64,000 nt of DNA from an uncultured Candidatus Saccharibacteria bacterium (lineage in GTDB: Bacteria; Patescibacteriota; Doudnabacteria; UBA920), in assembly GCA_964477745.1 (NCBI GenBank), contig CAYZEI010000001.1, forward strand, positions 393-64,392. Direction: 5' to 3'. The translations under genes were made by a program, and so were the position numbers. This document shows positions 2,944-61,975 of the stretch, in pieces (position 1 is the first letter of the stretch; every line of letters starts with the position of its first letter). The notes under the pieces were generated by a model. It saw only the letters and a program-made list of their open reading frames with translations. It was not told where the DNA came from and searched no databases.

Positions 2944-3831
2944 CAAACTTTGCTGTTTGCTTTCAGGATGAAAAGACAGCTCGTCATCTTCCACCACAAT
3001 AAATTTTTCCGTATTAATCTGCGGTAACTGCCAATTTTTCAACACTCTGTCCAGCCATAAGCCAAACCGGTTGGCTAATAATTTTTCCAAAAAATCCTGC
3101 GCTCTACTGGCCTTCTCAATGTCGGGATGGCTTAATTTAATATTGGGGAAAAATGCCTTTAGCCATGGTTCATTGATTTTTTGAAACTGCCATAAACTGT
3201 GGGGGTAATTTAGCGGCCGCAATTTTAAATACTCGGCCGAGGTATAAAGATTTTTTAAACTGGTGATTTCTTTTGGCCCCATAACATAGTGGTTTAAACA
3301 GAACCTGTCGGTAATATGTCCGCCATAACGTCTTTTGCCCAATACTTGAAAATAGGCGGTAATAATGGTGCGTCCGAGCCACATATAATCCGGGCGCACA
3401 ATTATAAACAAATCAATGTCGGAAGATTCTTTTTGTTGTCCCATAGCCTGACTGCCGGCCAAGCCCACTCCGCGAACGAAAGGCAAATGCTTTAAGCCCG
3501 GTGTGTAACGTTTAATTAATTTTTCCCGTTTTAAACCATAATAATAATTTCGCAATCTTAAATTGACAATTTCTTTTCGAGAAGGTAAATAATAAAATCC
3601 CAAATAATTCTCCACTTGGCCTTGGCACTCATTATCAATGCAAAATAAAATTTCATCTACGCCGACTTGAAGATTCGGTAGATGATTTTCGACTAACTCC
3701 CCTTGCGGATCTGTATATTGCTTTAACTCCGCCCAATCGGCAACTAAAAATTTATGCAACTCCAAAAGCGTCAAGGGATAATCTTGCAGATCAAAAAATT
3801 TCAGAGTTGATAAAATCCGATTTTTTAACAT
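2881..3831 (-). CDS. Nucleotidyltransferase-domain protein (Pol-beta-like NTase fold), function unknown
   Basis: GVGLAGSQAMGQQKESSDIDLFIIV fits the hG[GS]-x(9-13)-Dh[DE]h NTase signature. It overlaps the MTase gene convergently by 63 bp. Confidence 0.5.
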   Translation of the reverse strand: MLKNRILSTLKFFDLQDYPLTLLELHKFLVADWAELKQYTDPQGELVENHLPNLQVGVDEILFCIDNECQGQVENYLGFYYLPSRKEIVNLRLRNYYYGLKREKLIKRYTPGLKHLPFVRGVGLAGSQAMGQQKESSDIDLFIIVRPDYMWLGRTIITAYFQVLGKRRYGGHITDRFCLNHYVMGPKEITSLKNLYTSAEYLKLRPLNYPHSLWQFQKINEPWLKAFFPNIKLSHPDIEKASRAQDFLEKLLANRFGLWLDRVLKNWQLPQINTEKFIVVEDDELSFHPESKQQSLLAEFAKFQKQQERVSIKLVV

Positions 3832-3900
3832 CTTATAGGTCTTATAGGTCTTATAGGTCTTATAGGTCTTATAGGTCTTATAGGTCTTATGTCGCCTATA
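3832..3900. repeat. Tandem 9-bp repeat (CTTATAGGT x6 perfect plus one variant) ending in a short inverted repeat, directly abutting the start codon of the NTase gene
   Basis: Read directly: 3832-3885 holds six perfect CTTATAGGT units. Then CTTATGTCG, then CCTATAAG, which is the reverse complement of CTTATAGG. Plus ORF 3807..4007 is just this repeat translated as SYRSYR.... Confidence 0.85.
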
Positions 3901-4240
3901 AGCCTAGTCTGTCTAATGTTATTTCGTCCCACTCATCAAAATCAATTTCCTTAAAGACCCGAATTTTGTGGGAAAATTCGGTTTCGGAAAATTTATATTG
4001 CGCCTGAGCAGACTGCCCGGCGCGATGGGAAAACAGTTCTTTTTTTTCTAAGACTACAGGTTTATTTTCTCTTATAACTTTAAATTTTCCGGCAGGGTTG
4101 GTAAAAATTAAAATGTCTTGTGTTCCGGAAATAACGGGCCCGTCTTGCGTGTCCATAACCAAATCTTCTTTGGACAGCGTAACAAATTTAAAATGTTTTT
4201 GGGCAGTATTTACTAAATCCTGCCATTTGTCGTCTTGCAT
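3896..4240 (-). CDS. Hypothetical protein (114 aa)
   Basis: ORF only. No recognisable motif. Confidence 0.35.
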   Translation of the reverse strand: MQDDKWQDLVNTAQKHFKFVTLSKEDLVMDTQDGPVISGTQDILIFTNPAGKFKVIRENKPVVLEKKELFSHRAGQSAQAQYKFSETEFSHKIRVFKEIDFDEWDEITLDRLGL

Positions 4241-4341
4241 ATTTTACGAAGTACGAAACTTTACGAACTTACGAATTCTGGGACTACTGTACGTGTGTCT
4301 TTCGTACGTTCGTACCTATTCGTACTTCGTAAAGTCATTAA
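4241..4341. repeat. Nested-hairpin intergenic element, family 1 (TTACGAAGTACGAA ... TTCGTACTTCGTAA), complete copy
   Basis: Outer arms TTTTACGAAGTACGAA / TTCGTACTTCGTAAA and inner arms TTTACGAACTTACGAA / TTTCGTACGTTCGTAC surround a roughly 24-nt loop. The element exactly fills the gap between the stop of 4342..4560 and the start codon of 3896..4240. Homologous copies lie at 33482..33566, 19245..19279 plus 19682..19721, and a degenerate copy near 17230..17290. Confidence 0.8.
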
Positions 4342-4582: not shown

Positions 4583-5452
4583 TTATAATTCATAAACAAA
4601 ATTTAATCCTAATTCTTTTTGCAAGCCTTGTCCTCCTCCAATAAGCCATGTAAAATTTTTCCTTTGGCTTTTAGGCATATTTTCTAAAGCTCTAGCAAAT
4701 TCCTCCGGAGAAGGCCAGTTAATATTGGCTTGAGTGACGGGCTTACTCTGCTGTTCTGCGCTTACTTTAATTAAACCCTCCAATTTTTCATTTTTCTCTT
4801 TTGGAATTTCCCAATTTGCGTCAGCTAAAATTTTAAATATTTCTTCATCTAAACAGCCTTCTGGTTCTTGCATCAGCTTATTAATAAGTTCTTCATTGTC
4901 TAAAATATTTTTTAATATTAAAGCATAATTATAATCAACGGCCTCATAGCAATCTTCTCCAAAATCTAAACAAAGCGTATAGGGGTAACCTCCTCTGCTT
5001 TTGACATCAAGAAGTTTTCTTAAAATAAGATAGCTCCCCCCATTCTTTTTTTTAGCCACCCCATAAGAAATTTTATTTCCACTTCTATCCAAACCCTCCC
5101 TTGTACCAGCAATTCCTGAGTCCATGGGCTGTTCTCCTCGTCTAATACGTTCAATATAGCCTGTTCCACCATAAGCGTATAAACTAAAATCCTTCAAATT
5201 TTTCCAAAATGTTATTATCTTTTCGGCTTGAAATCCTCCAACTATTTCTGCTGGTTGTTTATTATTTATAAGTGCCTCTTCCCACTGGTAAGCCCTCTGG
5301 GCCAACACAGGATCTCCAGATGCCTTAAGCCTGTCTATATGCTCTTGGGGTGTAACAATTCGTCCAGCTTTAAAATCATCAGGATCTGTGGCAGGCAATC
5401 CCAGCTCATCCTCTGGAACATCATTAAACAAATTTTTAGGTTGTTCTTTCAT
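4583..5452 (-). CDS. Hypothetical protein (289 aa)
   Basis: Long ORF in protein-like codon phase on the gene-dense minus strand. No motif recognised. Confidence 0.45.
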   Translation of the reverse strand: MKEQPKNLFNDVPEDELGLPATDPDDFKAGRIVTPQEHIDRLKASGDPVLAQRAYQWEEALINNKQPAEIVGGFQAEKIITFWKNLKDFSLYAYGGTGYIERIRRGEQPMDSGIAGTREGLDRSGNKISYGVAKKKNGGSYLILRKLLDVKSRGGYPYTLCLDFGEDCYEAVDYNYALILKNILDNEELINKLMQEPEGCLDEEIFKILADANWEIPKEKNEKLEGLIKVSAEQQSKPVTQANINWPSPEEFARALENMPKSQRKNFTWLIGGGQGLQKELGLNFVYEL

Positions 5453-17154: not shown

Positions 17155-17286
17155 AAATTAATTGTCCATAATTGATCAAAATTGACCATGACTGATCAGA
17201 ATTTTGTTTCAACCTTAATTGATATTATTGTTTCGTATGTTCGCCTGCCTGCCGGTAGGCAGGTATGAATTCGTACTTCGTAAAAT

Positions 17287-18434: not shown

Positions 18435-18869
18435 CTACCTATAAAAGATGCTAAACACTCCGTCTGCGGACGGATAGTATTTACTATAAGCGACTGAGTC
18501 GGAGGCACCGGCCACTTGGCCTTGCTCGGCTAGAGCCACTTGAGTGTTAGCTAGTCCCTGCAGGCCTGCAATTTTTAAGAGGGACGGGCCAGCCTCTTGT
18601 CCAATATACGATGCAGTGTCTGCATAGTATGCGTAGTCTTGTTGAGCCGGAGTGATTAAGTTTGTATATACAAACTCAGAATACACACTGGCCGTGGTGT
18701 CTAACACAGCGACTACGTTTGTCGGGGCAAAGACATCCGGAAACGGGTTTTCTATTCTTTCAAAGCTGGCGTTACTAACAGTAACGGCGAAAAGAAAGAA
18801 CATGGAAGTAAACGCTACTCCCAAAAGCCCTAATATTTTTTCCGGGGTTTCTTCGGTAATGATTTTCAT
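18435..18869 (-). CDS. Hypothetical membrane-anchored/secreted protein (144 aa)
   Basis: N-terminal hydrophobic helix, then an Ala/Tyr-rich domain. No family recognised. Confidence 0.45.
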   Translation of the reverse strand: MKIITEETPEKILGLLGVAFTSMFFLFAVTVSNASFERIENPFPDVFAPTNVVAVLDTTASVYSEFVYTNLITPAQQDYAYYADTASYIGQEAGPSLLKIAGLQGLANTQVALAEQGQVAGASDSVAYSKYYPSADGVFSIFYR

Positions 18870-19244
18870 AAATTTTTAAAGTTCAAAAGCTTAAAGTAGA
18901 AACTTACTTGGCTGTTTTACCCTCTCTGCGCCCAGCTATACACGGGACGAGAAGTGATTGCGCACACACTCCTTAACTAAAACAATCAAAGCAATTTAAG
19001 CTTTTCTATATTAATATTATTTAATTGTATTTTTGTTTTGTCCCGATGTCCATTCACAAATTTTGTGGGAATGGCTACCGGAACAGTTTTTGTTTCAATG
19101 AATCCATCCAAATATTATCGGGATGTATTCAATTATGTTTGATTTCTTTTGCTCCACCACCGGCGAAACAAAATCGACCTTAAGAAATCTTTAACTTATA
19201 TATTATAGCACAGCTACAGAAAAAAAGCAAGTCTTAATTTTCGA

Positions 19245-19279
19245 TTTTACGAAGTACGAAGCCATACGAACTTACGAAT
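19245..19279. repeat. Left half (outer + inner arm) of a family-1 hairpin element
   Basis: TTTTACGAAGTACGAAGCCATACGAACTTACGAAT directly abuts the stop codon of the GxxExxY gene. Confidence 0.75.
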
Positions 19280-19681
19280 CTAAGCGCTTACATTTACTAT
19301 GCGCTTATAATGTAATCCGCTTGGACCAAAATACGCCAATATCCCTAACTGCAATTTTTTTGCCACTAAATAATTATAGACCTGATCAATATGAGCTTTG
19401 GAAAATTTATCCCCTCTTTTCAACTCAACTACAACAATATTTTCAACTAAAAAATCAAAATAATTTTTTCCCACAATCTTACCTTCAAACAATATCGGGG
19501 CATACAACTGTTCTGTGTATTTTAAACCCGCCTTAGTCAACCCTACGGCAACAGCTTTTTGGTAAGTCTTTTCATATAATCCATAACCCAAACTTCCGTA
19601 CACATTTAAAAGGACACCAACGATTCTAAAGCATAGTTCGGGATAAATTAAATCCTGTCGCTTTAAAACATTTGGTGTCAT
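19280..19681 (-). CDS. GxxExxY-family protein (PD-(D/E)xK nuclease superfamily), embedded in a family-1 hairpin element
   Basis: LGYGLYEKTYQKA...GL....Q...P...G......D.LVENIVVVELK......H.DQVYNYL....LQLGILAYFG....KRIV matches the GxxExxY consensus I remember. Start and stop codons abut the two halves of the element. Confidence 0.7.
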   Translation of the reverse strand: MTPNVLKRQDLIYPELCFRIVGVLLNVYGSLGYGLYEKTYQKAVAVGLTKAGLKYTEQLYAPILFEGKIVGKNYFDFLVENIVVVELKRGDKFSKAHIDQVYNYLVAKKLQLGILAYFGPSGLHYKRIVNVSA

Positions 19682-19721
19682 TTTCGTAAGTTCGTACTTT
19701 TTTCGTACTTCGTAAAAACGA
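19682..19721. repeat. Right half (inner + outer arm) of the same family-1 element
   Basis: TTTCGTAAGTTCGTACTTTTTTCGTACTTCGTAAAAAC lies between the GxxExxY start codon and the ftsZ stop codon. Confidence 0.75.
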
Positions 19722-20909
19722 TTATTTCATTTTCTTCCGAATGAACGCCGGGATATCCAGTTCGTCTTCCGGAGTTTCATCCACACTTGGCGTTTCAATT
19801 CTGTCTATCGGTGGAGCTGGTTTTGGATTGAACATTGGCTTGCGAACTTCGGCTACCGGAATCGGATTGTTAAAAATTCTCGGCTCCGGCATTTTAACTT
19901 TCTTTGGTTCGTCATTCATTATTATAGAAGCCGGGGTCGGACGCTTACTGGATTCATCAAAGCCCGTGGCAATTACGGTAATGCGAATTTCATCGCCCAT
20001 GGTGTCGTCTATGACCGCGCCGAATTTCACTTTGGCATCAGGGTCAATGCTTCGGGTAATAACTTTGGCCGCTTCGTCTATTTCAAACATACCCAAAGAG
20101 CTACCACCGGTAATGTTAAACAGCACGCCCTTGGCGCCGTCTATGGTCATCTCTAAAAGAGGAGAATTAATAGCTGCCTTAGCGGCTTCCTGCGCGCGGT
20201 TTTCACCACTCGCTCTGCCAATACCCATAAGTGCGGTACCGGCGTCTTGCATTATGGATTTAATGTCCGCGAAGTCCGCGTTCACAATTCCGTGCGTGGT
20301 AATTAAATCTGAAATTCCGGCAATCCCCTGGCGTAAGACTTCGTCAACGGTTTTGAAAGCGTCTACCAGGGAAGTTTTTTTGTCGATGATTTGTAAAATG
20401 CGATCGTTGTGAATGGAAATAATCGCGTCGACTTTATCTTTTAAATTATCATAAGCGGTTTCGGCAACTTCTTTTCTTTTGCTACCTTCAAAAGTAAAAG
20501 GCTTGGTCACAACACCAACTGTGAGAATACCTTTGTTCTTGGCCAGCTCGGCTACAATCGGCGCTGCTCCACTACCGGTACCACCACCAAGACCGCAGGT
20601 TATAAAAACCATGTCGCCGTTTTCAATAACTTCTTCCAATTCTTCCACACTTTCTTCCGCTGCTTGCCTGCCCAATTCCGGATTCATTCCGCTTCCTAAT
20701 CCTTTAGTGGCACTTTTGCCGATATGAACTTTGCGATCGGCTTGGTTATTATGAAGAGCCTGCGCGTCGGTATTAATAGACACGAATTCCACACCCTTAA
20801 TCCCCAACTGGGTCATTCTGTTGACCGCGTTGGTTCCGGACCCGCCAATGCCAAGAACCTTAATTCTGGCAAAGGTTTCAATTTTTGGTTTGACTTCCAT
20901 TTTTTTCAT
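19722..20909 (-). CDS. ftsZ: Cell division protein FtsZ
   Basis: GGGTGSG tubulin signature, NTDAQAL, and the C-terminal peptide DIPAFIRKK (FtsA-binding tail). Confidence 0.95.
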   Translation of the reverse strand: MKKMEVKPKIETFARIKVLGIGGSGTNAVNRMTQLGIKGVEFVSINTDAQALHNNQADRKVHIGKSATKGLGSGMNPELGRQAAEESVEELEEVIENGDMVFITCGLGGGTGSGAAPIVAELAKNKGILTVGVVTKPFTFEGSKRKEVAETAYDNLKDKVDAIISIHNDRILQIIDKKTSLVDAFKTVDEVLRQGIAGISDLITTHGIVNADFADIKSIMQDAGTALMGIGRASGENRAQEAAKAAINSPLLEMTIDGAKGVLFNITGGSSLGMFEIDEAAKVITRSIDPDAKVKFGAVIDDTMGDEIRITVIATGFDESSKRPTPASIIMNDEPKKVKMPEPRIFNNPIPVAEVRKPMFNPKPAPPIDRIETPSVDETPEDELDIPAFIRKKMK

Positions 20910-32230: not shown

Positions 32231-33481
32231 CTACGGCAAAAAGGATTTAAACCATTTTCTTAATTTGGCCACGCCTTCGTTACTCATAATATTTTTTACC
32301 ATTCCGCCCAGTTCAGCCGCGGAATTTTTGGCGGAAAATTTCCCGCCCCACAAAACCAAACCAACCGCTGTGGCAAATGAGGGATCATCTACCCGGTCTA
32401 TAACTGTACTGACGTTTTGCGGTTTGCCTAAAACAGTAGGCAGGCGCAAATTCTTTTTGGCAAATTCCACCATTCCGGGCATTTTACTACCTCCACCGGT
32501 TAAGACTATTCCGGCCGGCAATTTACCGTCGCGCTGGATTTTTTTTAGCTCCGAAACCACCATTCGGAAAATTTCTTCCAAACGGGCTTCAATAATTTCT
32601 ACTACATACTGTCTGGATGTGGCCTGGTCTTCGCTTTTATCTAACTTGGATAAATCTATTTCTTCTTCTTTGGAAATTTCTCCCGGGTTACAATGCCCGT
32701 AAAGTACTTTTACTTTCTCCGCGGTTTCAATTCCACAACGCAAACCAATCGCTACGTCATTGGTAATATGCATACTACCCAAAGGTAAAACCGAAGTGTG
32801 GAGTAGATCCCCTTCTTCATAAACGGCAATGCTAGTGGTGCCGGCGCCTAAGTCTACCAAACACACGCCCAAATCTTTCTGGCGTTTGCTTAACACACTT
32901 TCGGCCGCTGCACATGGAGCCAAAACCAAATCTTCTATTTCCAAACCCGCCTGCATAACCGCACGGGTTAAATTTTTAATAAACGGCAAGCCCGCTTGGA
33001 CAATAATTGTATCTACCTCTAAACGAATCCCGCTCATACCGGCCGGATCCTTAATTCCGGTCTGTCCGTCCAACGTAAAAGTTTTGGGGAAAACATGCAA
33101 GACTTCTTTATTTTGCGGAATGGAAATGGCTTGACTGGCATCTATGCAACGGATAATATCATTTTCCGTAATTTCGCCGTCTGCTCGGGAAACGGCAATA
33201 ACGCCATGGGAAGAAACCGAGGAAATATGATTTCCACCCACCGAAACATTAGCCGCCGAGACCGGCACGCCGGTCATGCGTTCAACTTTTTCCAAAGCGG
33301 AAGAAATGGAAGAAACTGCTTCTTCAATATCTACAATAACCCCACGTCGAAGACCCGTAGAAGGCACTTCGCTGGCGCCAATAATATTAAAAGACCCGGT
33401 TTGCGAGTCCAACTTTGCCTGCACCGCGCGAACATTGGCTGTTCCAACATCTACGCCAACAATGTATTGTTCTTTAGCCAT
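32231..33481 (-). CDS. ftsA: Cell division protein FtsA
   Basis: Actin-fold ATPase motifs (VGVDVGT..., DLGAGTTSIAV, GGGS). Length and pattern match FtsA. Confidence 0.9.
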   Translation of the reverse strand: MAKEQYIVGVDVGTANVRAVQAKLDSQTGSFNIIGASEVPSTGLRRGVIVDIEEAVSSISSALEKVERMTGVPVSAANVSVGGNHISSVSSHGVIAVSRADGEITENDIIRCIDASQAISIPQNKEVLHVFPKTFTLDGQTGIKDPAGMSGIRLEVDTIIVQAGLPFIKNLTRAVMQAGLEIEDLVLAPCAAAESVLSKRQKDLGVCLVDLGAGTTSIAVYEEGDLLHTSVLPLGSMHITNDVAIGLRCGIETAEKVKVLYGHCNPGEISKEEEIDLSKLDKSEDQATSRQYVVEIIEARLEEIFRMVVSELKKIQRDGKLPAGIVLTGGGSKMPGMVEFAKKNLRLPTVLGKPQNVSTVIDRVDDPSFATAVGLVLWGGKFSAKNSAAELGGMVKNIMSNEGVAKLRKWFKSFLP

Positions 33482-33566
33482 TTTTTACGAAGTACGAATT
33501 CTTACGAACGTACGAACTTAGGGACAGAACTTTTCGTAAGTTCGTACCCTTTTCGTACTTCGTAAA
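33482..33566. repeat. Family-1 nested-hairpin element, complete copy, filling the yqeY-ftsA gap
   Basis: TTTTTACGAAGTACGAA TTC TTACGAACGTACGAA ... TTTTCGTAAGTTCGTAC CC TTTTCGTACTTCGTAAA. The arm mismatch pattern differs from copy 4241..4341. Confidence 0.8.
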
Positions 33567-34007
33567 TTACTTTAGTTTTTCTTTCAAAATTTTTGCCAAG
33601 GTACTGCCGTCGGCCGAATCTTTTAAAGTAGCCTTAAGTTTTCCCATAGCTGCGCCAAAATCTTTGGCGGTAAAATTGTTTTCTGTAATGGTTTTTTCAA
33701 TAATCGCTACCAGTTCCGCTTCCGGCATCCCGGCTGGCAAGTACTTTTCTAAAATTACGGCCTCGGCCAATTCTTTTTCTGCTAACTCGGTGCGACTGCC
33801 GGAACTAAAACTTTGAGCTGCTTCTTTGCGTCTTTTTACTTCACTGCGAATTAGCGCCAAAATATCGCTTTCCGATAAATCCTTCATTTTGGAGATCTTT
33901 TCGTTCTGGATTCTGGTTTTTAGCCCGCGCAAAACCTCTACTGCCAATTGCTCTTTAGCCTTCATGGCCACGGTTAAATCTTTTTCAATTTGAGAGAGTT
34001 CCAACAT
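33567..34007 (-). CDS. yqeY: GatB/YqeY-domain protein
   Basis: Pattern matches YqeY (AMKAKEQLAVEVLRGLKTRIQNEKI...GAAMGKLKATL.GKADGS). Adjacent to rpsU, as in Bacillus. Confidence 0.7.
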   Translation of the reverse strand: MLELSQIEKDLTVAMKAKEQLAVEVLRGLKTRIQNEKISKMKDLSESDILALIRSEVKRRKEAAQSFSSGSRTELAEKELAEAVILEKYLPAGMPEAELVAIIEKTITENNFTAKDFGAAMGKLKATLKDSADGSTLAKILKEKLK

Positions 34008-36234: not shown

Positions 36235-36332
36235 AATATAAATAAGTTATCAAGTTATAAAGTTTTGCAAGTTATAAAGTTTCCGGTTCAACTTGATGAA
36301 CTTGATAACTTTAAAAACTTTCTACTTTTGTA
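36235..36332. repeat. Family-2 intergenic inverted-repeat element
   Basis: AAGTTATCAAGTTATAAAGTTTTGCAAGTTATAAAGTT ... TTCAACTTGATGAACTTGATAACTTTAAAAACTTT. Confidence 0.75.
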
Positions 36333-42436: not shown

Positions 42437-42553
42437 CGGGATAAAATAATTCCTAATATCTAATGTCTAATTTCTAATGGGTGCATCCATTAGGCATTTA
42501 TTCATTTGGGCTTGATTAGAAATTAGAAATTGAAAATTAGAAATTAATTCACT
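42437..42553. repeat. Inverted arrangement of short tandem repeats (4 x CTAATNN ... central hairpin CTAATGG-GTGCAT-CCATTAG ... 4 x ATTAGAAA/ATTGAAAA) in the dprA-capA intergenic region
   Basis: Read directly. The left array has period 7 and the right array period 8 (its complement). Family-3-like low-complexity fillers recur at 1647..1762, 12505..12639, 34428..34495 and 38966..39082. Confidence 0.7.
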
Positions 42554-51846: not shown

Positions 51847-51911
51847 ATTTAGCTTATAGCTGTTAGCTTATAGCTGTTAGGCCTAAAACCTAGAAGCTAG
51901 TAGCTAAAAGC

Positions 51912-52628
51912 TTATTTAACCAATTCTTTTCCGACCGAGGCAATTGTTCTGGTAACTACTTTTTCATCGCCGACAATGTTCCCGTCTTTCACCCGGATAA
52001 TTCTTTTGGCATGATTGGCCGTATCCATTTCGTGGGTAACCAAAATAATTGTCCTGCCTTCATTGTTTAATCTTTGCAAAATTTCCATTACCGTATTTCC
52101 GCTCTTGCTGTCTAGGTTTCCGGTCGGTTCATCGGCAAAAATTACCGCCGGATTATTTACCAAAGCGCGGGCAATGGCCACACGTTGCTTCTCACCACCG
52201 GAAATTTGATTGGTATAATACTCTAACCGATGTGACAAACCGACACTGTCTAAAGCTTTCTTTGCCAACTCGTCGTGATTCTTTTTGGTGCTGTAAATTA
52301 ACGGTAACTTAACGTTATCCAACACTGAGGTACGAGCCAATAAGTTAAATGATTGAAAAACAAAACCAATTTCCTCATTGCGCAAGGTGGCCAAATAATC
52401 GTCGTCAAAATTTTTAATATCTTGACCTTTAAACTCGTATAAACCTCCGGTGGAACGATCCAGAAAACTTAAAATGTGCATCAGTGTGGACTTTCCACTC
52501 CCAGACGGACCCATAATTGCCACAAACTCCCCCGGCTCAATGCTAAAAGATAAGCCGTGCAGTACCGAAGTGACTACGTCTTCATTAATATAATCTTTAC
52601 TTAAATTTTGAACTTTGATTAAAGACAT
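51912..52628 (-). CDS. ABC transporter ATP-binding protein (MacB/LolD-type)
   Basis: Walker [10 protein letters not shown], signature [15 protein letters not shown], Walker [13 protein letters not shown]. Confidence 0.85.
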
Positions 52629-52715
52629 TTTATCATCCTAGCATGCTAACATTTTATCATTTACATATGCTAATCAGAATTATTAGCTTGTTAAAATGAT
52701 AAAATGTTTAAATGA

Positions 52716-60977: not shown

Positions 60978-61026
60978 ATACTAGATAATAGCTACTAGCT
61001 TTTGGCTTGTAGCTTGTAATTAATTT

Positions 61027-61392
61027 TTAAGCTAGTGACTGGGTCATCTTATTTAACATTTTCATGACTTCCAGTAATAAACCATCTACTTTTTCAAACT
61101 CTACAATTCCAGCATGCTTTAAGCGTTTGGCGATTTCTATTTGGGTTTCCAGCTCTGCACCAGAAGCAAAGGCAATGATCAAAAATTGTCTAAAATCTTT
61201 TCTGCTATTTCTGGTTCTTCCTTCGGCAATATTTGATGGAATAGAAACTGCACTTCTTCTTGTTTGTGAGGTTAAACCATATATTTCAGATTTTGGATAC
61301 TTGTTTGTTAACAAATAAACTTCGGTCACTAGTTCCATTGACCGCTGCCAAACCACCAGCTCCTTATACGATGTAATGATTCCGTGGGTCAT
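61027..61392 (-). CDS. Four-helix-bundle protein (TIGR02436; so-called 23S rRNA intervening-sequence protein family)
   Basis: SYKELVVWQRSMELVTEVY..T..YPKSEIYGLTSQTRRSAVSIPSNIAEGRTRNSRKDFRQFLIIAFASGAELETQ matches the family consensus closely. Confidence 0.8.
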   Translation of the reverse strand: MTHGIITSYKELVVWQRSMELVTEVYLLTNKYPKSEIYGLTSQTRRSAVSIPSNIAEGRTRNSRKDFRQFLIIAFASGAELETQIEIAKRLKHAGIVEFEKVDGLLLEVMKMLNKMTQSLA

Positions 61393-61429
61393 TAAGCTAT
61401 AAGTTATTACCTAACATCTATAAGCTAGG

Positions 61430-61975
61430 CTAAAGTTCATTACGATCGGCAATTGACCGACCTAAAATAATTAAGAATATTAAAGGTAAAATTAGCCAAA
61501 TAAAACTACTGGAGCTAGATAAAAATACCAGGGTAACCAGCGGTGAAAAACTCTTGCCGGAAACTGCCAAATACCCTAAGACCGTGTTAATTAACAACCC
61601 AATTTGCAATACTGCAAACACCAATACAAATGGAATAGAACCAAAATGTCGTCCATCCACGGAGGTGCGAAAGGCATAGCGGGACAGTAATACAAACAGA
61701 ATAACAAGAATAATTAAAAAGCTTACCAGCTGTTGTAAGGAAGCAAGGGAGCTGGGTAATTTTTGGTTTATTGCATTACTTAACCACGGTGCCTGTAAAA
61801 CCAAAAGTTTGGCAATATACAAACTCATAAGCAAACTAATAATCCGTCCCCTGCCGGCGGAAAATGCATAAAACACCGAGGCAACGCCCCAAAATAAAAT
61901 AATAAACAAGTCCCAACTTGGCGTGTGCCAATTGAAACTTTGAATTAATTGATTTGCATCAGCGGCAGATAACAT
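61430..61975 (-). CDS. Four-TM membrane protein, possibly CvpA-like
   Basis: 181 aa. Hydrophobic helices with a CvpA-like size and topology. Weak call. Confidence 0.45.
   Translation of the reverse strand: MLSAADANQLIQSFNWHTPSWDLFIILFWGVASVFYAFSAGRGRIISLLMSLYIAKLLVLQAPWLSNAINQKLPSSLASLQQLVSFLIILVILFVLLSRYAFRTSVDGRHFGSIPFVLVFAVLQIGLLINTVLGYLAVSGKSFSPLVTLVFLSSSSSFIWLILPLIFLIILGRSIADRNEL

What the first reader, a model, noticed from the sequence alone, without database searches (positions are those of the whole stretch)
19245..19721. GxxExxY (PD-(D/E)xK) nuclease gene sitting exactly in the loop of a family-1 hairpin element: candidate autonomous mobile unit
The two halves of the family-1 element flank a 133-aa GxxExxY-family ORF. 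These are TTTTACGAAGTACGAA...TTACGAACTTACGAAT at 19245-19279 and TTTCGTAAGTTCGTAC...TCGTACTTCGTAAAA at 19682-19719. The ORF's stop and start codons abut the inner arms. Elsewhere the same arms enclose only a 14-24-nt loop (4241-4341, 33482-33566). That is the relationship expected between an autonomous element and its MITE-like non-autonomous derivatives. The PD-(D/E)xK nuclease would be the candidate mobilising or homing enzyme. GxxExxY genes are a long-standing enigma, often found in intervening sequences and hypervariable spots.
Basis: seen in the sequence. Interest (0 to 1): 0.75.

Follow-up and report, generated by a model that had tools for sequence, protein, structure and literature searches.

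The report
Nuclease gene nested in repeat hairpin
A small nuclease gene of unknown function sits exactly between the two arms of a hairpin repeat that also occurs without the gene at many places in this and related genomes. Relatives of the gene carry the same kind of arms almost everywhere, which gives this enigmatic family a concrete, testable nucleic-acid target.

Summary
Window 19245-19279 and 19682-19719 are inverted arms, each made of four TACGAA units. They abut the stop and start codons of a 133-aa GxxExxY/PDDEXK_3 ORF with intact D-ExK residues. ORF-less copies lie at 4241-4334 and 33483-33567, and a partial copy at 17232-17285.

The pattern is general:
- 80 of 83 distinct relatives, next to about 90 different neighbour gene families, are bracketed by arms of ACGAA-type units.
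- In six Candidatus Doudnabacteria species the 58 core arm bases are 97-100% identical, while third codon positions of the gene are only 53% identical.
- The genome-collection scan returned 83 arm-bearing stretches, nearly all from about a dozen Doudnabacteria-like genomes. I scored 88 arm sites in them, and 35 sit between the same two genes in another species.
- Just downstream of ftsZ, sister species carry this cassette, a four-helix-bundle ORF in different arms, or ORF-less hairpins of other unit families.

This copy is an old, vertically inherited resident, not a recent insertion. I saw no target-site duplication.

Best reading (0.45): a system like the REPIN-RAYT repeat-plus-enzyme pairs, in which the nuclease acts on the repeat units. 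Mobilisation by the nuclease is inferred, not shown. RNA-level and passenger readings remain open. I found no published description.

The parts
19682..19719 (-). 5' arm in gene orientation: TTTTACGAAGTACGAA-aaaaag-TACGAACTTACGAA-a, then ATG. It has four TACGAA units in a 2+2 layout and fills the gap between the ftsZ stop codon and the GxxExxY start codon.
   Evidence: core bases identical in five other species
19280..19681 (-). GxxExxY / PDDEXK_3 ORF, 133 aa, with G34xxE37xxY40, D76 and E86-x-K88.
19245..19279 (-). 3' arm in gene orientation: a-TTCGTAAGTTCGTA-tggc-TTCGTACTTCGTAAAA. It starts 1 nt after the stop codon.
4241..4334 (.). ORF-less hairpin of the same family with a 25-nt loop. It starts 1 nt from the ATG of ORF 3896-4240, in the gap between that ORF and ORF 4583-5452 (both minus strand).
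   Evidence: fold z -5.7 to -6.6 as DNA and -6.1 as RNA
33483..33567 (.). ORF-less hairpin of the same family with a 16-nt loop. It exactly fills the gap between the YqeY-like gene (stop at 33567) and ftsA (ATG at 33481).
17232..17285 (.). Partial or rearranged copy. The outer arm TTCGTACTTCGTAAAA lies next to the nrdR stop codon, and the inner part is replaced by a CCTGCC...GGCAGG palindrome.
19722..20909 (-). ftsZ, the upstream co-directional gene. No promoter is predicted between it and the cassette, so the nuclease gene is probably expressed by read-through (inference).
19202..19231 (-). Conserved CTTGCT-N17-TGTGCTATAAT promoter-like box just past the 3' arm. It marks the start of the next transcription unit.
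   Evidence: Read from sequence. Conserved in all relatives, but not called by the consensus scan.

Best explanation
The two arms and the ORF form one genetic unit: a GxxExxY nuclease gene bracketed by its own cognate repeat. Each arm carries four TACGAA units in a 2+2 layout. The roughly 85-nt hairpins are the same repeat without the gene. The system works like a REPIN-RAYT pair, that is, a single-copy, vertically inherited enzyme gene flanked by inverted copies of the repeat, plus a population of ORF-less palindromic copies wedged between genes.

Proposed mechanism:
1. The nuclease, probably acting as a dimer, recognises the TACGAA units in the folded (hairpin or cruciform) or duplex form of the arms.
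2. It cuts there.
3. Repair or copying of the cut keeps the units uniform and occasionally seeds or replaces hairpins at intergenic sites.
4. The gene is expressed by read-through from ftsZ. The long-range stem, which sequesters the ATG region, keeps expression low.

Shown: the nested anatomy; the generality of the ORF-arm association; the extreme conservation of the units; copy number and distribution; turnover at the ftsZ site; an intact catalytic motif.

Inferred: that the protein binds or cuts the units; that this drives spread or maintenance; the expression mode.
For: 1. **Anatomy and non-randomness:**
2. **Generality.** The inverted-repeat score of the flanks has median 37.5 for 76 GxxExxY genes against 15 for 252 control ORFs. 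Of the GxxExxY genes, 64% exceed the control 95th percentile. 80 of 83 distinct genes have at least 3 AC[GTA][AG]A units in their flanks. 56% have at least 2 exact ACGAA units in both arms, against 1.2% of 338 controls.
3. **Many contexts.** The neighbours belong to 90 protein families. Some cassettes lie between rpsG and fusA in the str operon. L094 and L097 carry the same TACTAA arms in unrelated contexts.
4. **Arm type tracks the ORF family.** GxxExxY goes with ACGAA-type units and four-helix-bundle ORFs with other units, although this genome holds several hairpin families. Unit variants partly follow the protein tree.
5. **Arm conservation.** The arm cores are 97-100% identical where third codon positions are 41-64% identical. 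The spacers between unit pairs vary freely.
6. **ORF-less copies.** The scan gave 83 stretches, nearly all from about a dozen Doudnabacteria-like genomes. At orthologous sites the units are conserved while loops and flanks are not.
7. **Site turnover.** The ftsZ-3' site is filled, empty or holds other cargo in species with 87-90% identical FtsZ. Carriers are interspersed with non-carriers in the FtsZ tree.
8. **Decay without the gene.** The PLYC genome has a four-helix-bundle ORF at the ftsZ site instead of GxxExxY. Six of its 14 pattern-matching arms have degraded partners.
9. **Protein.** Catalytic residues are invariant and the fold is PD-(D/E)xK. Tandem two-domain fusions are common, which suggests a dimer.
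10. **Precedent.** REPIN-RAYT properties are described in PMC3733652 and bioRxiv 10.1101/2022.05.22.493013.
Against: - There is no direct evidence that the protein touches the arms.
- No target-site duplication or other transposition scar is seen.
- This copy has not moved since the species diverged.
- Four-helix-bundle ORFs, not known to be nucleases, show the same nested layout and have their own ORF-less hairpins. The nested ORF may therefore be a passenger or a binding factor rather than the engine.
- JARLHZ has the most TACGAA hairpins (20 sites), nearly all intact, yet no arm-flanked GxxExxY was found in the stretches retrieved. Only 8-kb stretches were visible.
- Many intergenic spacers in this genome are hairpins of other families with no known partner.
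- Distant family members in cultured bacteria have short inverted or direct flanking repeats instead.
Confidence: 0.45

Rival explanations
1. RNA-level element, like a 23S rRNA intervening sequence. In the ftsZ read-through transcript the arms pair into a stem of about 30 bp that loops out the ORF. RNase III, or the GxxExxY protein acting as a ribonuclease, cuts the stem. That separates the cassette RNA from the host mRNA and limits its translation. ORF-less hairpins would be operon punctuation, mRNA processing or stability sites. The conserved units would be recognition sites in RNA.
For: - The minimum-free-energy fold of the whole 493-nt element pairs the arms (-136 kcal/mol, z -6.4).
- Short hairpins fold with z about -6 as RNA.
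- Of 48 hairpins, 42 lie between co-directional genes, usually 0-10 nt from the stop codon and the next start codon.
- The upstream neighbour of the cassette is co-directional in 67 of 74 cases.
- Precedent: ORF-bearing intervening sequences with 28-bp terminal stems are cut by RNase III (PMC4990558).
Against: - Mismatches in the arms show no excess of G:U-type over A:C-type (61 vs 53).
- Sequence is conserved, not just pairing.
- In L182 and L183 an intrinsic-terminator-like hairpin with a T-run sits between the arms, so the 3' arm would rarely be transcribed.
- Tandem-gene placement is not enriched over background (87.5% vs 78%, p 0.12).
- No Rfam family matches.
- None of the loci lies in rRNA.
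Confidence: 0.2
2. Passenger model. The periodic-unit hairpins are the primary elements. They are spread or maintained by a host or unlinked factor, or by replication slippage and gene conversion. Their loops act as a cargo bay that can hold a terminator, a GxxExxY gene or a four-helix-bundle gene. The nuclease would have another role, for example defence or repair, and would merely ride in the hairpin.
For: - The same ftsZ-3' site holds four alternative hairpin cassettes, two of which have only a terminator in the loop.
- Non-nuclease four-helix-bundle ORFs have the same layout.
- Many hairpin families have no known ORF.
- TACGAA hairpins are present in genomes where no cognate gene was found.
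Against: - A random passenger would not show a near-universal pairing of GxxExxY with ACGAA-type units across some 90 contexts and many lineages.
- Nor would it show a separate unit vocabulary for four-helix-bundle genes.
- The arms flanking the gene are as strictly conserved as the protein's catalytic residues.
Confidence: 0.2
3. Host regulatory pair. GxxExxY is a domesticated sequence-specific DNA- or RNA-binding or cutting factor. Its binding sites, the TACGAA hairpins, regulate or punctuate operons. Its own gene is autoregulated by being embedded in a site. No mobility is involved today.
For: - The gene has long vertical inheritance and is under purifying selection.
- Hairpins at orthologous sites have conserved units.
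- Hairpins are placed exactly between stop and start codons.
Against: - Most sites (53 of 88) are not shared between genomes.
- Different hairpin families occupy the same orthologous spacer in sister species.
- The gene is dispensable, having been replaced in three lineages.
- Cassettes are inserted into otherwise universal operons such as rpsG-fusA.
Confidence: 0.15

Closest known systems
REPIN-RAYT systems (REPtrons / TIRtrons)
   Same: A single-copy enzyme gene is flanked by inverted copies of a repeat. The same repeat forms a population of ORF-less palindromic doublets in intergenic DNA. Inheritance is vertical and persistence is long. Expression probably depends on read-through and is damped by the flanking hairpins (PMC3733652; bioRxiv 10.1101/2022.05.22.493013).
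   Different: The enzyme is a 133-aa PD-(D/E)xK GxxExxY protein, not a HUH/Y1 IS200-like transposase. The arms are four hexamer units in a 2+2 layout with no GTAG tag. The arms abut the start and stop codons. The host is a candidate-phyla-radiation bacterium. No biochemistry exists.
ORF-bearing 23S rRNA intervening sequences (S23p / four-helix-bundle ORF in a stem cut by RNase III)
   Same: A small ORF of about 110-130 aa lies in the loop of a terminal stem of about 28-30 bp. Related four-helix-bundle ORFs occupy the same kind of cassette in this genome and at the same ftsZ site in a sister species (PMC4990558).
   Different: The cassette is not in rRNA. It lies between protein-coding genes. 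The arms are periodic-unit repeats that also exist as an ORF-less multi-copy family. RNase III processing is untested.
MITEs such as Correia / NEMIS elements and their parent insertion sequences
   Same: Short terminal-inverted-repeat elements lie in intergenic DNA, are co-transcribed with neighbours and fold into hairpins. A longer copy carries an ORF.
   Different: There is no target-site duplication and no DDE or other recognised transposase. Many copies are old and orthologous. The comparison with Correia elements rests on my own knowledge and was not tested here.
Free-standing or intron-borne homing endonuclease genes
   Same: A small nuclease gene shows presence/absence polymorphism at one precise intergenic site, and is inserted in conserved operons.
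   Different: The gene is bracketed by its own inverted repeats and accompanied by ORF-less copies. It shows long-term purifying selection at one site rather than a gain-decay-loss cycle. No target-site information is available.

Membership tests
GxxExxY protein (TIGR04256) / PDDEXK_3 (PF13366) | Profile HMM score above the curated cutoff | tested here: met
   PF13366 scores 93.5 bits (cutoff 22). TIGR04256 scores 95.3 bits (cutoff 35)..
GxxExxY protein (TIGR04256) / PDDEXK_3 (PF13366) | GxxExxY motif and PD-(D/E)xK catalytic residues on a restriction-endonuclease-like fold | tested here: met
REPIN-RAYT (REPtron) | The enzyme is a HUH/Y1 tyrosine transposase of the IS200/IS605 type | tested here: not met
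   The only Pfam hits are PDDEXK_3 and a weak Cas4 match. The fold is PD-(D/E)xK.
REPIN-RAYT (REPtron) | The enzyme gene is flanked by inverted copies of the repeat that also forms an ORF-less palindromic population | tested here: met
REPIN-RAYT (REPtron) | Single copy, vertically inherited, long persistence | tested here: met
   Same synteny in six species, with third-codon-position identity averaging 53%. Only one copy is present in the window. Whole-genome copy number was not testable.
REPIN-RAYT (REPtron) | The enzyme binds and cleaves the single-stranded repeat | not testable with these tools
   Needs biochemistry.
MITE / insertion sequence | Terminal inverted repeats | tested here: met
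MITE / insertion sequence | Target-site duplication flanking copies | tested here: not met
   The flanks of 29 complete hairpins show only an extension of the palindrome (AGTT...AACT) and no direct duplication.
MITE / insertion sequence | The autonomous copy encodes a recognised transposase | tested here: not met
23S rRNA intervening sequence | Located inside a 23S rRNA helix | tested here: not met
   The cassette lies between ftsZ and a protein-coding gene. No rRNA motifs occur in any of the 190 loci. There are no rRNA hits in the window.
23S rRNA intervening sequence | Terminal complementary sequences form a stem enclosing the ORF | tested here: met
23S rRNA intervening sequence | Excision by RNase III | not testable with these tools
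   Needs RNA end mapping or an in vitro assay.
Intrinsic terminator | GC-rich stem followed by a U-tract | tested here: not met
   The arms are AT-rich and end in AAA. The scan does not call them.

The most novel reading that the evidence does not exclude
GxxExxY proteins are sequence-specific nucleases whose cognate sites are the periodic (T)ACGAA(T)-type units bracketing their own genes. Together with ORF-less hairpins they would form a second class of long-lived intragenomic replicators, independent of HUH transposases and analogous to REPIN-RAYT. This class would be widespread in candidate-phyla-radiation bacteria. The four-helix-bundle '23S intervening sequence' proteins would be a sister class using other unit vocabularies. 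That would explain why both families turn up in stems, intervening sequences and hypervariable spacers.
Probability: 0.35. Interest if true: 0.9.

Novelty: new variant of a known kind. Interest (0 to 1): 0.8.

Why it matters
GxxExxY/PDDEXK_3 is a very large family. It has 20,017 cluster representatives at 50% identity. It has no known function and almost no literature: three papers mention the name, none functionally.

This analysis gives the family a specific predicted substrate, four TACGAA-type units per arm in a 2+2 layout. It also gives a genomic behaviour: nested cassettes plus ORF-less hairpins, with the units invariant across species. It offers natural comparison sets, namely filled, empty and alternative-cargo alleles downstream of ftsZ and between rpsG and fusA.

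If the REPIN-RAYT-like reading holds, persistent repeat-plus-enzyme replicators are not limited to HUH transposases or to Proteobacteria. It would also mean that a sizeable part of intergenic DNA in streamlined candidate-phyla-radiation genomes is built from such elements. In this window, 13 of 36 spacers fold with z below -3.

Tried and rejected
- **Chance repeat:** rejected by shuffles.
- **Known RNA family:** no Rfam match at gathering threshold over the window, or at E up to 1 over 18800-19800.
- **Intrinsic terminator:** not called, and there is no U-tract.
- **TIGR-Tas arrays:** these surfaced in a literature search on candidate-phyla-radiation repeats. I rejected them from my own recollection of their anatomy (I did not read the paper), because copies here carry no variable spacers and are isolated hairpins.
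- **Phage or plasmid origin:** no relatives in INPHARED phages or IMG/VR viral contigs. There are only six distant hits in plasmids or chromids.
- **Sense-RNA wobble bias:** G:T 61 vs A:C 53, uninformative.
- **Strand bias in which arm decays:** 9 vs 4, p 0.27.
- **Preference for tandem gene pairs:** p 0.12.
- **Target-site duplication:** none.
- **Location in rRNA:** none in 190 loci.
- **Solved structure by sequence:** none.
- **Outlier pattern hits:** hits in Bacteroidota and Proteobacteria assemblies (L057, L058, L062, L072, L087) have no GxxExxY gene nearby. They look like lone heptamer-repeat tracts or a chimeric bin.
- **Cognate gene in JARLHZ, CAZFQP, CAYVNU and CAYOXN:** I could not establish whether an ACGAA-flanked GxxExxY gene exists, because only 8-kb stretches around pattern hits were available.
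- one search reported a minus-strand four-helix-bundle gene in reverse-complement coordinates. I corrected this to 61027-61392.

Full report
**1. What is in the sequence**

On the minus strand the gene order is ftsZ (19722-20909), a 38-nt arm, a 133-aa ORF (19280-19681), a 35-nt arm, a promoter-like box, a 144-aa ORF and then nrdR.

In gene orientation the 5' arm reads TTTTACGAAGTACGAA-aaaaag-TACGAACTTACGAA-a-ATG. The 3' arm reads TAG-a-TTCGTAAGTTCGTA-tggc-TTCGTACTTCGTAAAA. Each arm therefore holds four TACGAA units, arranged as two pairs separated by a short spacer that does not pair.

The repeat finder gives outer arms of 25 nt at 88% complementarity and inner arms of 14 nt at 100%. The arm sequences occur 7-8 times in the window against 0.5-0.9 expected, and no shuffle reaches that number.

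Complete ORF-less hairpins lie at 4241-4334 and 33483-33567. A rearranged copy lies at 17232-17285.

**2. Source organism and history of this copy**

The identical protein is found on six contigs in the same context. Relatives with 74-79% protein identity come from JGI, Logan, ENA and NCBI assemblies named Candidatus Doudnabacteria. They show the same order, ftsZ -> arm -> GxxExxY -> arm -> small ORF -> nrdR.

Across six species the 58 core arm bases are 97-100% identical. The coding sequence is 68-83% identical, and third codon positions are 41-64% identical (mean 53%). The spacers inside the arms differ freely.

So this copy is old, vertically inherited and under purifying selection. Its arms are held constant far more tightly than neutral DNA. 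One lineage (L100) has lost the ATG (now ATA) and has two mutated units.

**3. The ORF-less family**

I scanned one genome per species for TTTACGAAGTACGAA-N2-9-TACGAAC. This returned 83 stretches, nearly all from about a dozen Doudnabacteria-like assemblies, some of them labelled Saccharibacteria. I scored 88 arm sites in those stretches and the window, up to 20 per genome.

Of 48 complete hairpins, 42 lie between co-directional genes, usually 0-10 nt from the upstream stop codon and the downstream start codon. This placement is not significantly more than the background share of tandem gene pairs (78%, p 0.12).

No target-site duplication is visible. The palindrome simply extends by one or two bases.

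Of the 88 sites, 35 share both flanking genes with a TACGAA site in another genome. At such orthologous sites the units are conserved, while loops, spacers and flanks are not. The other 53 sites are specific to one genome.

Hybrid and decayed copies also exist. Some pair with TTAGTA-type partner arms. In the PLYC genome a repeat of about 100 nt replaces the outer 3' arm.

**4. The association is general**

A metagenome scan with the protein alignment gave 80 loci with 44-70% identity to the window protein.

- The inverted-repeat score between the 80 nt upstream and the 80 nt downstream has median 37.5 for 76 GxxExxY genes. It is 15 for 252 control ORFs in the same loci. Of the GxxExxY genes, 64% exceed the control 95th percentile.
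- Reading the flanks shows the same architecture nearly everywhere. There are three to five (A/T)ACGAA(T) units ending at or overlapping the ATG. Mirror ATTCGT units start at or overlap the stop codon, which is often the TAA inside ATTCGTAA.
- Unit spacing peaks at 7-8 nt within a pair and 10-11 nt between pairs.
- Over all loci held at that point, 80 of 83 distinct genes have at least three AC[GTA][AG]A units. Among the 75 genes from the metagenome scan, 56% have at least two exact ACGAA units in both arms, against 1.2% of 338 control ORFs.
- Variants (ACTAA, ACAAA, ACGGA, GCGGA) change in both arms together and partly follow the protein tree. One contig carries three paralogues, each with its own variant.
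- The neighbours of these genes fall into 90 protein families. The upstream neighbour is co-directional in 67 of 74 cases. Recurrent sites include the gap between rpsG and fusA in the otherwise universal str operon, which can only be an insertion.
- L094 and L097 carry the same TACTAA arms in unrelated contexts.

The gene and its arms therefore travel together.

There is a limit to this generality. Four distant members (28-35% identity) from cultured Treponema, Fusobacteria, Prevotella and Persicobacter show an 11-bp inverted repeat, direct repeats of 45-70 nt, or nothing.

**5. Empty, filled and alternative alleles**

I looked at species whose FtsZ is 87-90% identical to the window's. The site just after ftsZ holds one of three things:
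- no ORF, but a hairpin of CTACAGA units enclosing a terminator-like stem with a T-run (L182);
- no ORF, but a hairpin of TAAGAA/ACAAGAA units, again enclosing a terminator-like stem (L183-L185);
- a four-helix-bundle 23S_rRNA_IVP ORF inside ATAAGC-unit arms (L186, identical to PLYC L028).

In a rough FtsZ tree the carriers, including the deepest branch, are interspersed with non-carriers. This implies ancestral presence with at least three replacements, or repeated site-specific gain.

The nrdR-RNR spacer likewise holds a different hairpin family in each species.

PLYC has a four-helix-bundle ORF, not GxxExxY, at its ftsZ site. Six of its 14 pattern-matching arms there have degraded partners. 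The degraded share is about 2 of 35 in JARLHZ, and in CAWINB 1 of 14 once the two arms that flank the gene itself are set aside. This is suggestive but not decisive.

**6. A parallel family in the same window**

Window 61027-61392 (minus strand) encodes a 23S_rRNA_IVP/bAvd-like protein (E 2.9e-36). It is bracketed by inverted TAGCT-unit arms at 60982-61001 and 61394-61413.

An ORF-less hairpin of the same units lies at 51848-51912.

Four-helix-bundle genes elsewhere use AAGAAT, ATAAGC, ATAACT or CGTTAT units, never ACGAA.

Further unit families occur at 36244-36324 and 42444-42549. In the window, 13 of 36 intergenic spacers fold with z below -3.

Each small-ORF family therefore has its own arm vocabulary. 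This argues for cognate recognition. It also shows that a nuclease is not required for the nested layout.

**7. DNA or RNA?**

The whole 493-nt element folds with the arms paired (z -6.4). The short hairpins have z about -6, both as RNA and as DNA.

Arm mismatches show no excess of G:U-type over A:C-type (61 vs 53). There is no transcription-strand bias in which arm decays.

In L182 and L183 a terminator-like stem lies between the arms. The 3' arm would therefore seldom be in the transcript.

These points lean towards a DNA-level role but do not exclude RNA. No Rfam family matches.

**8. Explanation**

The best-supported reading is a system like REPIN-RAYT: a single-copy, vertically inherited enzyme gene flanked by inverted copies of a repeat that also forms an ORF-less population.

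The GxxExxY nuclease would be the sequence-specific partner of the TACGAA units. It probably works as a dimer, since about 30 of the top 150 family representatives are tandem two-domain fusions.

The REPIN-RAYT properties cited are taken from PMC3733652 and bioRxiv 10.1101/2022.05.22.493013. The intervening-sequence precedent is from PMC4990558.

What is shown is the anatomy, the generality, the conservation, the distribution and the site turnover. That the protein binds or cuts the units, and that this maintains or spreads them, is inference.

Three rivals remain open:
- an RNA stem processed as in intervening sequences;
- a passenger gene riding in a hairpin cargo bay;
- a domesticated regulator with its binding sites.

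**9. Novelty**

Full-text searches for GxxExxY, PDDEXK_3, PF13366, TIGR04256 and related terms found only incidental mentions and no description of the flanking unit arms.

The system is not a member of RAYT, insertion-sequence/MITE or rRNA intervening-sequence families, because defining features fail in each case (see the membership table). It works most like REPIN-RAYT. I rate it a new variant of a known kind, with high interest, because it turns an uncharacterised family with 20,017 cluster representatives into a directly testable one.

Noticed in passing
window 60979-61413 (ORF 61027-61392, minus strand): A 23S_rRNA_IVP / bAvd-like four-helix-bundle ORF (Pfam E 2.9e-36) is bracketed by inverted TAGCT-unit arms. 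It is wedged between ORF 61430-61975 and a response-regulator gene whose ATG follows the arm directly. The nested layout matches the GxxExxY cassette but uses a different unit vocabulary.
   Followed up: partly
window 51848-51912: ORF-less hairpin with 31-nt arms (81% complementary) built from the same TAGCT(T/G) units as the arms of the four-helix-bundle cassette. It fills the gap between two minus-strand genes.
   Followed up: partly
window 36244-36324, 42444-42549, 52625-52708, 3830-3890: Further intergenic elements made of periodic units: AAGTT/AACTT hairpin, TCTAAT/ATTAGA hairpin, another hairpin, and a tandem 9-mer CTTATAGGT x6. Overall, 13 of 36 intergenic spacers of the window fold with z below -3.
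   Followed up: partly
window 18870-19235 (minus strand); also L009 10452-10781, L100, L182, L183, L186: A leader of about 330 nt lies behind a strictly conserved TGTGCTATAAT box, upstream of the 144-aa ORF 18435-18869. It has sequence blocks conserved across species (for example TTAAGGAGTGTGTGCGCAATCACTTC). It has no Rfam match and could be an unannotated RNA or riboregulator.
   Followed up: no
L182 5183-5290; L183 5180-5300: At the site where the window has the GxxExxY cassette, sister species have hairpins of other unit families (CTACAGA; TAAGAA/ACAAGAA). Their loops contain a classic terminator-like stem plus T-run.
   Followed up: partly
L186 5200-5710 (= PLYC, L028): At the same ftsZ-3' site this species has a four-helix-bundle ORF within ATAAGC-unit arms, preceded by a terminator-like hairpin.
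   Followed up: partly
L034, L038, L041, L045, L054, L063, L091 (PLYC-type loci); window 17232-17285; L076: A separate repeat of about 100 nt (TTCGCCCGCCTGCCAAAGCAAA...TTACCATCAGTGCGAC...) replaces the outer 3' arm of TACGAA hairpins. CCTGCC...GGCAGG palindromes are inserted inside arms in the window and in L076. This may be a second element that targets these hairpins.
   Followed up: no
L009 15440-15790: A 95-aa GIY-YIG nuclease gene is flanked by a 14-nt inverted repeat (TTTCAGGATACAT / ATGTATgGATCCTGAAA). This is another small nuclease ORF nested between inverted repeats.
   Followed up: no
L136, L140, L142, L146, L156, L171: GxxExxY cassettes are inserted between rpsG (S7) and fusA (EF-G) in the str operon, with different unit variants. 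This is a recurrent insertion hot spot in a universally conserved operon.
   Followed up: partly
L112 3200-5500: Three GxxExxY paralogues lie within about 2.5 kb. Each has its own arm unit variant (ACGGA, ACGAA(A), GCGGA).
   Followed up: no
L188 (Fusobacteria ZRK30 plasmid), L189 (Prevotella nigrescens): Distant GxxExxY genes (28-33% identity) are flanked by direct repeats of 45-70 nt rather than inverted ones. In Prevotella the repeats contain periodic ACAAAT units.
   Followed up: no
window 33567 / 33481, 4240 and many loci: Genes that follow a hairpin start 0-14 nt after the 3' arm and have no Shine-Dalgarno sequence. The base of the hairpin brings the upstream stop codon and the downstream start codon together. 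This suggests termination-reinitiation coupling across the stem (speculation).
   Followed up: no
(P0253, P0258, P0259 and others): About 30 of the 150 best family representatives are tandem two-domain GxxExxY fusions of roughly 265 aa.
   Followed up: no
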